Below, piece by piece: positions 11,463 to 15,805 of a stretch of 64,000 bases of DNA. Position 1 is the stretch's first letter; the number at the start of each line of letters is the position of its first letter. Position numbers and translations under genes: made by a program. The DNA comes from Octopus vulgaris (taxonomy: Eukaryota), in assembly GCA_951406725.2 (NCBI GenBank), contig OX597818.1, positions 147,374,001 through 147,438,000 of the forward strand. Direction: 5' to 3'. The notes beneath the pieces were generated by a model. The model ran no database searches. It was given only the letters and a program-made list of their open reading frames with translations, and had not been told where the DNA came from.

Positions 11463-14400
11463 ACTTATTTCATCAACCCCAAAAGTTTGAAAGGCAAAGT
11501 TGACCTCGGTGACATTCGTACTCAGGACAAAAAGACGGACAAAAGGCCGCTAAGCAACGTAATAACGATTCTGGCCAACGTGGTAACGATTCTGGCCAAC
11601 GTAATAACGATTCTGGCCAACGTGGTAACGATTCTGGCCAACGTAATAACGATTCTGGCCAACGTGGTAACGATTCTGGCCAACGTGGTAACGATTCTGG
11701 CCAACGTGGTAACGATTCTGGCCAACGTGGTAACGATTCTGGCCAACGTGGTAACGATTCTGGCCAACGTGATAACGATTCTGGCCAACGTGGTAACGAT
11801 TCTGGCCAACGTGATAATGATTCTGGCCAACGTGGTAACGATTCTGGCCAACGTGATAACGATTCTGGCCAACGTAATAACGATTCTGGCCAACGTGATA
11901 ACGATTCTGGCCAACGTGGTAACGATTCTGGCCAACGTGATAACGATTCTGGCCAACGTGGTAACGATTCTGGCCAACGTAATAACGATTCTGGCCAACG
12001 TGGTAACGATTCTGGCCAACGTGGTAACGATTCTGGCCAACGTGATAACGATTCTGGCCAACGTGGTAACGATTCTGGCCAACGTGATAACGATTCTGGC
12101 CAACGTGGTAACGATTCTGGCCAACGTGGTAACGATTCTGGCAAACGTGGTAACGATTCTGGCCAACGTAATAACGATTCTGGCCAACGTGGTAACGATT
12201 CTGGCCAACGTGGTAACGATTCTGGCCAACGTGGTAACGATTCTGGCCAACGTGATAACGATTCTGGCCAACGTGGTAACGATTCTGGCCAACGTGATAA
12301 TGATTCTGGCCAACGTGGTAACGATTCTGGCCAACGTGATAACGATTCTGGCCAACGTAATAACGATTCTGGCCAACGTGATAAGGATTCTGGCCAACGT
12401 GGTAACGATTCTGGCCAACGTAATAACGATTCTGGCCATCGTGGTAACGATTCTGGCCAACGTGATAACGATTCTGGCCAACGTGGTAACGATTCTGGCC
12501 AACGTAACAACGATTCTGGCCAACGTAATAACGATTCTGGCCAACATGGTAACGATTCTGGCCAACGTAATAACGATTCTGGCCAACGTGGTAACGATTC
12601 TGGCCAACGTAACAACGATTCTGGCCAACGTAATAACGATTCTGGCCAACATGGTAACGATTCTGGCCAACGTAATAACGATTCTGGCCAACGTGGTAAC
12701 GATTCTGGCCAACGTGATAACGATTCTGGCCAACGTGGTAACGATTCTGGCCAACGTGGTAACGATTCTGGTCAACGTGGTAACGATTCTGGCCAACGTG
12801 GTAACGATTCTGGCCAACGTGATAACGATTCTGGCCAACGTGGTAACGATTCTTGTCAACGTGGTAACGATTCTGGCCAACGTGGTAACGATTCTGGCCA
12901 ACATGGTAACGATTCTGGCCAACGTAATAACGATTCTGGCCAACGTAATAACGATTTTGGCCAACGTAATAACGATTCTGGCCAACGTGATAACGATTCT
13001 GGCCAACGTTATAACGATTCTGGCCAACGTGGTAACGATTCTGGCCAACGTAATAACGATTCTGGCCAACGTGGTAACGATTCTGGTCAACGTGGTAACG
13101 ATTCTGGCCAACGTAATAACGATTCTGGCCAACGTGATAACGATTCTGGTAACGATTCTGGCCAACAACGTAATAACTGATTTCTGGCACTGTAACGTGG
13201 CCAACGTGTAACGATTCTGGCCAACGTGGTAACGATTCGTGGTAACGATTCTGGCCAACGTTAACGATTCTGGCCAACGTGGTAACGATTCTGGCCTGAA
13301 CGTGGATAACGATTCTGGCCAACGTGGTAACGATTCTGGCCACGTGTAACGATTCTGGCCAACGTGATAACGATTCTGGCCAACGTGGTAACGATTCTGG
13401 CAAACGTGATAACGATTCTGGCCAACGTGGTAACGATTCTGGCCATTTGGCAACGTAACGATTCTAACGACGATTTCTAACGATTCTGGCCAACGTGATA
13501 ACGATTCTGGCCAACGTGGTAACGATTCTGGCCAACGTAACGATTCTGGCCAACGTGGTAACGATTGGCCAACTAACGATTCTGGCCAACGTGTAACGAT
13601 TCTGTGGATAACGATTCTGGCCAACGTGGTAACGATTCTGGCCAACGTGGTAACGATTCTGGCCAACGTGGTAACGATTCTGGCCAACGTGATAACGATT
13701 CTGGCCAACGTGGTAACGATTCTGGCCAACGTGGTAACGATTCTGGCCAACGTGGTAACGATTCTGGCCAACGTGGTAACGATTCTGGCCAACGTGGTAA
13801 CGATTCTGGCCAACGTGGTAACGATTCTGGCCAACGTAATAACGATTCTGGCCAACGTGGTACGATTCTGGCCAACGTGGTAACGATTCTGGCCAACGTG
13901 GTAACGTGGCAACGTAGATAACGATTCTGGCCAACGTGGTAACGATTCTGGCCAAATAACGATTCTGGCCAACGTAATAACGATTCTGGCCAACGTATAA
14001 CGATTCTGGCCAACGTGATAACGTTAACGATTCTGGCCAACAACGATTCTTATAACGATTCTGGCCAACGTGGTAACGATTCTGGCCAACGTAATAACGA
14101 TTCTGGCCAACGTGGTAACGATTCTGGCCAACGTAATAACGATTCTGGCCAACGTGGTAACGATTCTGGCCAACGTGGTATACGATTCTGGCCAACGTGG
14201 TAACACGATTCTGCCAACGTGTAACGATTCTGGCAACGTAATAACGATTCTGGCCAACGTGATAACGATTCTGGCCAAACGTGGTGATAACGATTCTGGC
14301 CAACGTGTAACGATTCTGGCCAAACGATTCTGCAACACGATCGGCAACGTGATAACGATTCTGGCCAACATGGTAACGATTCTGGTCAACGTAATAACGA

Positions 14401-15805
14401 TTCTGGCCAACGTGGTAACGATTCTGGCCAACGTGATAACGATTCTGGCCAACGTGGTAACGATTCTGGCCAACGTGGTAACGATTCTGGCCAACGTGGT
14501 AACGATTCTGGCCAACGTGGTAACGATTCTGGCCAACGTGATAACGATTCTGGCCAACGTGGTAACGATTCTTGTCAACGTGGTAACGATTCTGGCCAAC
14601 GTGGTAACGATTCTGGCCAACATGGTAACGATTCTGGCCAACGTAATAACGATTCTGGCCAACGTAATAATGATTTTGGCCAACGTAATAACGATTCTGG
14701 CCAACGTGATAACGATTCTGGCCAACGTTATAACGATTCTGGCCAACGTGGTAACGATTCTGGCCAACGTAATAACGATTCTGGCCAACGTGGTAACGAT
14801 TCTGGTCAACGTAATAACGATTCTGGCCAACGTGATAACGATTCTGGCCAACGTGGTATCGATTCTGGCCAACGTGGTAACGATTCTGGCCAACGTAATA
14901 ACGATTCTGGCCAACGTGGTAACGATTCTGGCCAACGTGATAACGATTCTGGCAAACGTGATAACGATTCTGGCCAACGTGGTAACGATTCTGGCCAACG
15001 TGATAACGATTCTGGCCAACGTGATAACGATTCTGGCCAACGTGGTAACGATTCTGGCCAACGTGGTAACGATTCTGGCCAACGTGATAACGATTCTGGC
15101 CAACGTGGTAACGATTCTGGCCAACGTGATAACGATTCTGGCCAACGTGATAACGATTCTGGCCAACGTGGTAACGATTCTGGCCAACGTGGTAACGATT
15201 CTGGCCAACGTGGTAACGATTCTGGCCAACGTGATAACGATTCTGGCCAACGTGATGACGATTCTGGCCAACGTGGTAACGATTCTGGCCAACGTGATAA
15301 CGATTCTGGCCAACGTGGTAACGATTCTGGCCAACGTGGTAACGATTCTGGCCAACGTGGTAACGATTCTGGCCAATGTGGTAACGATTCTGGACAACGT
15401 GGTAACGATTCTGGCCAACGTGGTAACGATTCTGGCCAACGTGATAACGATTCTGGCCAACGTGATAACGATTCTGGCCAACGTAATAACGATTCTGGCC
15501 AACGTGATAACGATTCTGGCCAACGTGGTAACGATTCTGGCCAAAGTTATAACGATTCTGGCCAACGTGGTAACGATTCTGGCCAACGTGGTAACGATTC
15601 CGGCCAACGTGATAATGAATCTTGCCAACGTGTTAACGATTCTGGCCAACGTGATAACGATTCTGGCCAACGTGGTAACGATTCTGGCCAACGTGGTAAC
15701 GATTCTGGCCAACGTAATAACGATTCTGGCCAACGTAATAACGATTCTGGCCAACGTGGTAACGATTCTGGCCAACGTGATAACGATTCTGCCAATTCGC
15801 CACCT
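11463..15805 (-). mobile_element. SINE family 1 copy split by an internally derived minisatellite
   Basis: 11463-11555 matches the SINE body (AAGGCAAAGTTGACCTCGG...GACGGAC...GCCGCTAAGCA). 15781-15805 matches the SINE 5' head (TAACGATTCTGCCAATTCGCCACC). Confidence 0.85.
11555..15790. repeat. 21-bp minisatellite, ~200 copies, consensus CAACGT(G/A)(G/A)TAACGATTCTGGC
   Basis: Directly visible. There are three main variants (GTGGTA, GTGATA, GTAATA) and no unique spacers. Confidence 0.98.

What the first reader, a model, noticed from the sequence alone, without database searches (positions are those of the whole stretch)
11463..15805. 4.2-kb minisatellite grown from the Pol III A-box region of a single SINE
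Seen: the left flank is the SINE-1 body and B-box region, and the right flank is the SINE 5' head. The 21-bp unit (CAACGTGGTAACGATTCTGGC) matches the SINE segment CGGCGTGCTAACGATTCTGCC (compare ~7287-7307). On the minus strand each unit therefore reads TGGCCAGAATCGTTA, an A-box-like motif, giving ~200 tandem A-box-like sites upstream of one decayed B-box. Inference: this captures a satellite originating from a SINE promoter, with possible TFIIIC or chromatin effects inside a gene region.
Basis: partly seen in the sequence, partly recalled or inferred. Interest (0 to 1): 0.75.

Follow-up and report, generated by a model that had tools for sequence, protein, structure and literature searches.

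The report
SINE-born minisatellite with unexpanded twin
A 21-letter piece of one decayed jumping element is repeated about 200 times here, while a near-identical copy of the same region on another chromosome-scale contig holds only two repeats, so the genome likely keeps both the seed and the grown form of a minisatellite; it is a known kind of repeat and probably has no promoter function.

Summary
The array is real: 202 copies of a 21-bp unit at 11555-15791, inside the head of one tRNA-type SINE whose two halves flank it. As an array the unit occurs only here. New: a region 1.3-1.7% diverged on contig C20 carries the same SINE copy with only two units, the seed. Both versions appear in 4 of 4 public runs laid, which favours true paralogs (about 70%) over an unpurged allele. 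The same SINE segment has seeded at least seven other arrays of 10 or more units, and the favoured periods follow short internal repeats of the SINE. The promoter reading fails: 179 units have wrong A-box spacing, the B-box is mutated, and no host gene was found nearby. SINE-derived minisatellites are known from human Alu, mouse B1 and reptile SINEs. The scan's notes held nothing near this place; the 8 shown of 151 genome notes concern LINEs inserting into this SINE's head, not such arrays. Verdict: new member of a known kind, a neat natural experiment, modest interest.

The parts
11555..15791 (.). Minisatellite, about 202 units of 21 bp; three main unit types that differ at two adjacent bases (GG, GA, AA); last unit incomplete (19 bp)
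   Evidence: TRF; unit typing (left clean part 75 units, 1.05% mismatch outside the two variable bases; right clean part 68 units, 1.4%)
11440..11554 (-). Body, decayed B-box (about 11513-11523) and inter-box spacer of the host SINE copy, about 9 bases short at the array junction
   Evidence: blastn; alignment; no GTTCRA core; same decayed B-box in the C20 twin
15773..15806 (-). 5' head of the host SINE with the only canonical A-box of the copy (starts at 15794 on the minus strand; overlaps the last unit)
13139..14353 (.). Irregular middle of the array with many small indels; likely unresolved read consensus (inferred)
   Evidence: all 27 off-length segments lie here
12700..13140 (.). Block of units repeated 1719 bases further on (14419-14859), 434 of 441 bases identical; flanks the irregular middle
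6493..64000 (+). Segment colinear with G000:C20:9,505,452 onward (goes on beyond the window to about C5:147,481,600 / C20:9,588,900); the C20 copy holds the two-unit seed at C20:9,510,360-9,510,399
5074..6592 (.). (TAT)n microsatellite at the left edge of the duplicated segment
   Evidence: TRF; homology starts at its right end
7100..7325 (-). Another copy of the same SINE with intact A- and B-box, used as reference (also 6587-6809, 6870-7096, 23188-23368)

Best explanation
This is a minisatellite of about 200 21-bp units that lies inside the head of one decayed tRNA-type SINE and likely grew, without function, from a two-unit seed that is still present in a near-identical region on contig C20. 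Steps: (1) a SINE copy inserted and decayed (shown: flanks form one copy with a mutated B-box). (2) A 20-21-bp piece over the A-box was duplicated once, probably by slippage between short repeats that the SINE head itself contains (shown: two-unit state, and period preference across the genome; the slippage is inferred). The seed already had the extra G and two unit types. (3) About 100 kb around it was duplicated between C20 and the end of C5 (shown as sequence; true paralogy about 70%, unpurged allele about 30%; direction unknown). (4) Only the C5 copy expanded, likely by unequal exchange or gene conversion, which shuffles unit types and copies whole blocks (interspersed types and a 441-bp block repeat are shown; the mechanism is inferred from known minisatellite biology). 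Its place 159 kb from the contig end may have favoured this (inferred, one case). It would not recruit TFIIIC.
For: Flanks join into one SINE. C20 twin: same flanks, first unit identical to the array's first unit, second unit incomplete and of a variant (CpG-type G>A change) that recurs 5 times in the array. Flank divergence 10 of 758 and 38 of 2187 aligned bases; only 2 matches to the unique left flank in the genome. Unit 17-mer: 157 of 159 genome matches are in the array; a two-unit pattern with 1 mismatch: 136 of 136. Public contigs: C20-type and window-type right flank both present in 4 of 4 runs laid; the C20-type letters match the C20 copy at all 9 substitutions and the 1-base gap in X1 and X2; pure-unit records at depth 477 and 270 against flank depth 9.8 in run X3 show the array outside this assembly. 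Other arrays of 10 or more units from the same segment at 7 of 28 loci examined. Of 49 doubled loci with period 15-29, 31 fall on periods 16, 20, 21, 29 (p 6e-5 against uniform), and counts per period track microhomology in a 53-copy SINE consensus (Spearman 0.82, p 2e-4, 15 classes). A- and B-box tests.
Against: The C20 copy could be the other allele, misplaced: divergence is low enough, the homology begins at a 1.5-kb microsatellite, ends near a 100-N gap of C20, and the C5 end shows no telomere repeat. The two flank types are not at equal depth (ratios 1.35-2.0), one run may be the source of the assembly, and runs may be pools. The two-unit state could be a contraction rather than the ancestral state; no outgroup was available. 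Exact microhomologies in the consensus are only 2-5 bases, shorter than the 5-10 of the classic model, and the 29-bp class uses several registers, so the correlation is partly by class only. Loci were counted by hand from listings (100 of 107 rows). Function was tested only by motif; no RNA or chromatin data.
Confidence: 0.8

Rival explanations
1. One locus, two alleles: the 2-unit and the ~200-unit forms are alleles of a very polymorphic VNTR, and the C5 tail is an unpurged haplotig joined to the contig end at a microsatellite.
For: 1.3-1.7% substitution divergence; homology starts at the (TAT)n tract and ends near a scaffold gap on C20; no telomere repeat in the last 110.9 kb of C5.
Against: Both flank types in 4 of 4 runs from four studies and three organism labels; in X5 five unrelated listed contigs have depth 45-52 while the shared flank has 75-97, in X1 6.6-39 against 29-40, in X3 3.5-10.1 against 7.1-9.8 (unclear) (the tool warns that depth is no copy number); several multi-kb insertions differ between the copies.
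Confidence: 0.3
2. The array is a functional cluster of Pol III A-boxes that binds TFIIIC or shapes chromatin near a gene.
For: The unit comes from the A-box segment; the array holds 392 CpG (observed/expected 1.58 against 0.67 in the rest of the window), so it could take a methylation state.
Against: 2 canonical A-boxes against 179 mis-spaced ones, no B-box core; the A-box is the low-affinity site (PMC11724288, passages); the twin does without the array; Pfam finds only retroelement domains and DUF7083 above cut-off in 26 + 57 window ORFs and 65 of 112 neighbouring ORFs (short exons could be missed).
Confidence: 0.05
3. The array is largely an assembly artefact (a short repeat blown up by read errors).
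For: Irregular 1.2-kb middle and a near-perfect 441-bp block on both sides of it; a 147-bp public contig joins the flanks over two units.
Against: 143 clean units with about 1% mismatch and ordered variant types; high-depth pure-unit records in X3 and large summed depth in X2 and X5; the 147-bp contig is explained by the C20 twin.
Confidence: 0.05
4. The array codes for a repetitive protein (five of six frames of the unit are open).
For: ORFs of 430-830 codons run through the array.
Against: A 21-bp unit without a stop gives such frames by itself; no Pfam match for the two plus-strand frames; the unit derives from a SINE; the twin lacks the array.
Confidence: 0.02

Closest known systems
Alu-derived human minisatellites (Jurka and Gentles 2006, known to me only as cited; Ahmed and Liang 2012, PMC3389668, passages read)
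   Same: Short unit from inside one SINE copy, SINE sequence on both sides, start at short direct repeats of the SINE, sub-regions of the SINE that duplicate more often, incomplete terminal unit.
   Different: Invertebrate tRNA-type SINE; about 200 units; an unexpanded twin in the same genome; exact microhomology only about 3 bases.
SINE-derived satellites (sSat) of squamate reptiles (Vassetzky et al. 2023, PMC10702118; abstract, background, start of results and discussion read; supplements not seen)
   Same: Tandem of part of a tRNA SINE with original SINE sequence at the ends; a few to hundreds of units; independent origins; long loci prefer subtelomeric places; 'library' of short duplications of which few expand.
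   Different: sSat units are about 70-290 nt and form multi-locus families; here the unit is 21 nt and single-locus.
Mouse B1-derived VNTR family and MaLR-derived Ms6-hm (Bois 1998, Kelly 1994; seen only as citations and table rows in PMC6947457)
   Same: Long unstable arrays expanded from a short motif inside an interspersed repeat.
   Different: Those units are about 5-6 bp; instability here is not measured.
Octopus tRNA-derived SINEs (Ohshima and Okada 1994, three families; seen only as a citation; family names and likeness recalled)
   Same: The host element looks like an octopus tRNA-derived SINE (recall; earlier scan notes also call the genome octopus-like).

Membership tests
SINE-derived minisatellite | Head-to-tail array with unit of 10-100 bp | tested here: met
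   21 bp x 202.1
SINE-derived minisatellite | Unit homologous to part of a SINE, with the rest of the same copy at the array ends | tested here: met
   17 of 21 bases; flanks join into one copy; two-unit twin
SINE-derived minisatellite | Host is a high-copy interspersed element with A- and B-box and simple-repeat ends | tested here: met
   59,666 and 308,773 exact matches of two 11-mers against 694 and 2,480 for reversed controls; A- and B-box in 3 of 4 other window copies
tRNA-derived SINE | Head homologous to a tRNA | tested here: inconclusive
   Boxes present, but ARAGORN 0 genes in the window and no Rfam tRNA match in 3 loci at E up to 5
Haber-Louis type origin | 5-10 bp direct repeats flank the duplicated unit | tested here: not met
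   Exact repeat at this locus is 3 bases; 2-5 bases in the consensus at favoured periods, 6-7 of 10 imperfect. Works like it, with shorter or imperfect repeats
Slipped-strand (Taylor-Breden) type origin | Incomplete terminal unit | tested here: met
   Last unit 19 of 21 bases in both the array and the twin
Reptile sSat | Unit of about 70-290 nt, multi-locus family | tested here: not met
   21 nt; single locus
Reptile sSat | Long loci near chromosome ends | tested here: inconclusive
   159,110 bases from the contig end, but no telomere repeat there; the 7 other long arrays lie 3.5-30 Mb from an end
VNTR (length-polymorphic minisatellite) | Copy number varies between individuals | tested here: inconclusive
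   Highest listed unit-record depth is about 11x the window-type flank in X1 and about 120x in X3; contig depth is no copy number and tables are cut
Functional Pol III type 2 promoter / TFIIIC site | Canonical A-box T-G-A-G at 1, 3, 7, 11 | tested here: not met
   2 strict matches, 179 mis-spaced
Functional Pol III type 2 promoter / TFIIIC site | Intact B-box at a usable distance | tested here: not met
   No GTTCRA or GWTCRANNC; 4271 bases from the intact A-box
Functional Pol III type 2 promoter / TFIIIC site | Occupancy or transcript in cells | not testable with these tools
   No ChIP data; no RNA holder listed

The most novel reading that the evidence does not exclude
One genome holds a controlled experiment on minisatellite birth: the same two-unit seed sits in two true paralogs, and only the copy near a chromosome end grew a hundredfold, so position and not sequence decided expansion. 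Beyond that, this SINE's head would be a genome-wide seed bank whose unit lengths are predictable from its internal short repeats, with the A-box segment duplicating 2-3 times more often than two other segments, possibly because a site-specific LINE nicks the head a few bases away (lead from earlier scan notes, not tested).
Probability: 0.3. Interest if true: 0.55.

Novelty: new member of a known kind. Interest (0 to 1): 0.33.

Why it matters
The first step of minisatellite formation is normally erased by later expansion, which is why its origin is hard to study (PMC3389668, passages). Here the seed and the grown array both exist with almost identical flanks, and some fifty independent duplications of the same SINE segment give a distribution of unit lengths that can be compared with the SINE's own short repeats. 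That makes 'what starts an array' and 'what lets it grow' separately testable in an invertebrate. It does not point to new regulation: the promoter motifs are broken. I found no paper on SINE-derived minisatellites in octopus in the listings (open-access library only; the 1994 octopus SINE paper and all supplements were not seen).

Tried and rejected
tRNA scan of the window (0 genes) and Rfam on three SINE loci (only AT-repeat chance matches below gathering score): no direct proof of tRNA origin. 'A-box-specific hotspot': only modest; two control 11-mers also double (37 and 16 loci in C1-C4 against 21) and also form long arrays; per single motif the A-box segment is 2.9x and 2.3x higher (p 2e-4, 0.01), with two controls only and hand counts. 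Host gene search: Pfam on 26 + 57 window ORFs and 65 of 112 neighbouring ORFs gave retroelement domains and DUF7083; three weak hits under cut-off were disregarded. Expression: no RNA holder listed; no evidence either way. The 147-bp bridging contig has only 28 letters on the right side, under the tool's 31, and its left part is window-like, so it may be a mosaic; I use it only as consistent with the C20 twin. The right-part mismatch figure was out of phase and was replaced. The 2 genome matches of the unit 17-mer outside the array were not listed and not located. Whether the seed arose as a 21-bp duplication plus one substitution or a 20-bp duplication plus one inserted base could not be decided. 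DNA folding of four units gave weak hairpins (about -13 kcal/mol, no shuffle control): not used. 1 of the 21 C1-C4 loci (C4:87.16 Mb) was not fetched; L084 gave no TRF array.
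Full report
Observation. Tandem Repeats Finder reports one array at 11555-15795, period 21, 202.1 copies, 89% matches; the sequence shows the last unit ending at 15791. Units fall into three main types that differ at two adjacent bases: in the left clean part 40 GG, 15 GA, 17 AA and 3 others of 75 units, with 15 mismatches in 1425 other positions; in the right clean part 35, 20, 10 and 3 of 68, with 18 in 1292. All 27 segments whose length is not 21 lie between 13139 and 14353; this middle looks like unresolved read consensus (inference). 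A 441-bp block left of it recurs 1719 bases on with 434 identities.

SINE context. The left flank 11440-11556 matches three other copies of a SINE in the window at 71-78%, and the right flank matches SINE heads. Joined in a script, the flanks align as one copy on the minus strand, about 9 bases short between the boxes. The unit equals the reference copy at 7287-7307 in 17 of 21 places. The SINE is very abundant: an 11-mer of its A-box segment has 59,666 exact matches in the 2.8-Gb genome (reversed control 694), a B-box 11-mer 308,773 (control 2,480), a spacer 11-mer 106,687 (control 328). It resembles octopus tRNA-derived SINEs (recalled; the 1994 paper is seen only as a citation); ARAGORN and Rfam gave no tRNA match, so the family is not assigned.

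The unit is local. A unit 17-mer has 159 matches in the genome, 157 of them in the array; the other 2 were not listed. A two-unit pattern with one mismatch has 136 matches, all 136 in the window. A 106-base BLAST gave 58 matches: 56 in the array and 2 in a different 21-bp array on C11.

The unexpanded twin. Public contigs laid on the two flanks showed a 147-bp record that runs from the left flank over two units into the right flank (X1, X3, X5; an 86-bp form in X2; X6 laid on the left only), and two flank types in 4 of 4 runs. That led to a search with the right flank, which found a 97% match at C20:9,510,400; the unique left flank has exactly two matches, the window and C20. At C20 the same SINE copy has two units only: a first unit identical to the array's first, and an incomplete second unit with a G>A change that recurs in 5 array units, plus two private changes. 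The extra G and both ends are the same as in the window. Flanks differ at 10 of 758 and 38 of 2187 aligned bases. Colinearity runs from window 6493 to the window's end and on to about C5:147,481,600, against C20:9,505,452 to about 9,588,900, with several multi-kb insertions private to each side.

Paralogs or alleles. For paralogs: the C20-type flank (all 9 substitutions and the 1-base gap in X1 and X2; 6 differences over the shorter records of X3 and X5) and the window-type flank are both present in 4 of 4 runs from four studies and three organism labels, and in X5 the shared flank is 1.5 to 2 times as deep as five unrelated listed contigs (75-97 against 45-52). Against: depths of the two types are unequal (22.7/16.8, 55.9/38.2, 5.9/3.9, 64.8/32.5), X3 shows no clear doubling, one run may be the assembly's own source, runs may be pools, the homology starts at a 1.5-kb (TAT)n tract and ends near a 100-N gap, and the last 110.9 kb of C5 hold no telomere repeat. 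I put paralogy at about 70%. Under either reading the two-unit and the 200-unit state coexist. That two units is the older state is parsimony, not shown.

The array is not only in this assembly. In X3 two pure-unit records have depth 477 and 270 against 9.8 for the shared flank; the matching 31-mers occur 50-73 and 31-34 times in the assembled array. In X1 the highest listed unit record is 193 against 34-40. This hints at length variation, but contig depth is no copy number and the tables are cut.

A recurrent process. The A-box-segment 11-mer doubled within 6-30 bases has 321 matches, about 162 of them in this array. C1-C4 are listed whole: 21 loci, of which 20 were fetched; 19 of 20 show SINE sequence upstream by eye. 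Among 28 loci examined, 7 hold arrays of 10 or more units: 16 bp x 44, 30 x 38, 21 x 20, 21 x 12, 21 x 42, 20 x 27, 21 x 14; each has its own unit variants, and the window's array is about five times longer than the next. From the 100 of 107 rows I counted 52 other loci; of the 49 with period 15-29, 31 have period 16, 20, 21 or 29 (p 6e-5 against uniform), and counts per period correlate with microhomology in a consensus of 53 copies (Spearman 0.82, p 2e-4). Caveats: hand counts, exact microhomologies of only 2-5 bases, several registers in the 29 class, and some duplications may have spread by retrotransposition. Controls: a B-box 11-mer doubles at 37 loci and a spacer 11-mer at 16 loci in C1-C4, and both also form long arrays. 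Per single motif the A-box segment is 2.9 and 2.3 times higher (p 2e-4 and 0.01): a mild preference, not a unique property.

Function. On the minus strand of 11380-15830 the A-box pattern TRGYNNARNNG occurs twice, at the SINE head and once in the irregular middle; 179 sites have three bases where two belong. No B-box core is left in the host copy, while 3 of 4 other window copies have both boxes. The one good A-box lies 4271 bases from the dead B-box. In yeast TFIIIC the B-box gives high-affinity binding and the A-box contributes little (PMC11724288, passages). The C20 twin has the same dead B-box, so the promoter decayed before the array grew. Pfam finds LINE-type reverse transcriptase and endonuclease domains and DUF7083, but no host gene, in 83 window ORFs and 65 of 112 neighbouring ORFs; short exons could be missed. 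The long open frames in the array follow from a 21-bp unit with a stop in only one of six frames.

Known kinds. Minisatellites from Alu and B1 SINEs, started at short direct repeats and enlarged by slippage, conversion or unequal crossing-over, are reviewed in PMC6947457 (passages) and PMC3389668 (passages), which also reports sub-regions of AluS that duplicate more often. Reptile SINE-derived satellites have SINE sequence at the ends, up to 1000 units and a subtelomeric preference for long loci, but units of 70-290 nt (PMC10702118). This locus is a new member of that general kind. A recent octopus repeat annotation does not mention minisatellites in its main text (PMC13282606, term search); listings showed no report of such arrays in octopus. 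Supplements were not seen.

Earlier scan notes. Nothing near this place. The 8 shown of 151 genome notes describe a Tx1-type LINE and head-less SINE units that insert at one site of this SINE's head. I saw the 184-bp head-less tandems myself but did not test the LINE link; a nick there is a possible extra cause of duplications in the head.

Verdict. Observation confirmed; origin from one SINE supported (about 0.95); promoter function not supported; whole mechanism about 0.8. New member of a known kind, interest 0.33; the value lies in the preserved seed and the countable set of independent births.

Noticed in passing
L036, L037, L039, L043, L047 (G000 C1-C3): Tandems of 2-3 head-less SINE units of about 184 bp ending in one full head; probably the self-insertion described in earlier scan notes.
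   Followed up: no
L038 2564-3270 (C1:218.89 Mb); L082 1854-2393 (C20:57.06 Mb): Arrays of 16 bp x 44 and 20 bp x 27 from the same SINE segment that keep canonical A-boxes in nearly all units, next to a SINE B-box region; better candidates for tandem A-box effects.
   Followed up: partly
G000 C11:76.14 Mb, C4:167.43 Mb, C11:18.92 Mb, C26:22.36 Mb: Arrays built from the B-box segment (19 and 13 bp units) and from the inter-box spacer (24 and 17 bp units) of the same SINE; tandem B-boxes could bind TFIIIC.
   Followed up: no
G000 C5:147,515,149-147,522,057: A second copy, on the C5 tail, of the block that matches C20:9,569,600-9,588,000; the tail is internally duplicated and rearranged.
   Followed up: no
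window 27842-30517, 33173-35081, 36781-38298, 42219-43499, 48022-54575, 58599-59681, 1336-3502: Many LINE-type ORFs (reverse transcriptase, endonuclease); some appear present in only one of the two paralogous segments, which could date the duplication.
   Followed up: partly
window 15942-18950: Interspersed repeat with many 70-77% matches elsewhere and a DUF7083 ORF at 17381-17749; possibly a decayed retroelement.
   Followed up: no
L047, left of the doubled motif (C3:39.63 Mb): The sequence beside the SINE head looks like a fragment of 5.8S rRNA (recalled likeness, not tested).
   Followed up: no
window 11555-15791: 392 CpG, observed/expected 1.58 against 0.67 in the rest of the window: little CpG decay, as expected for a young or homogenised array.
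   Followed up: no
window 8683-8855: Two copies of an 87-bp GC-rich unit with a 43-44-bp sub-period.
   Followed up: no
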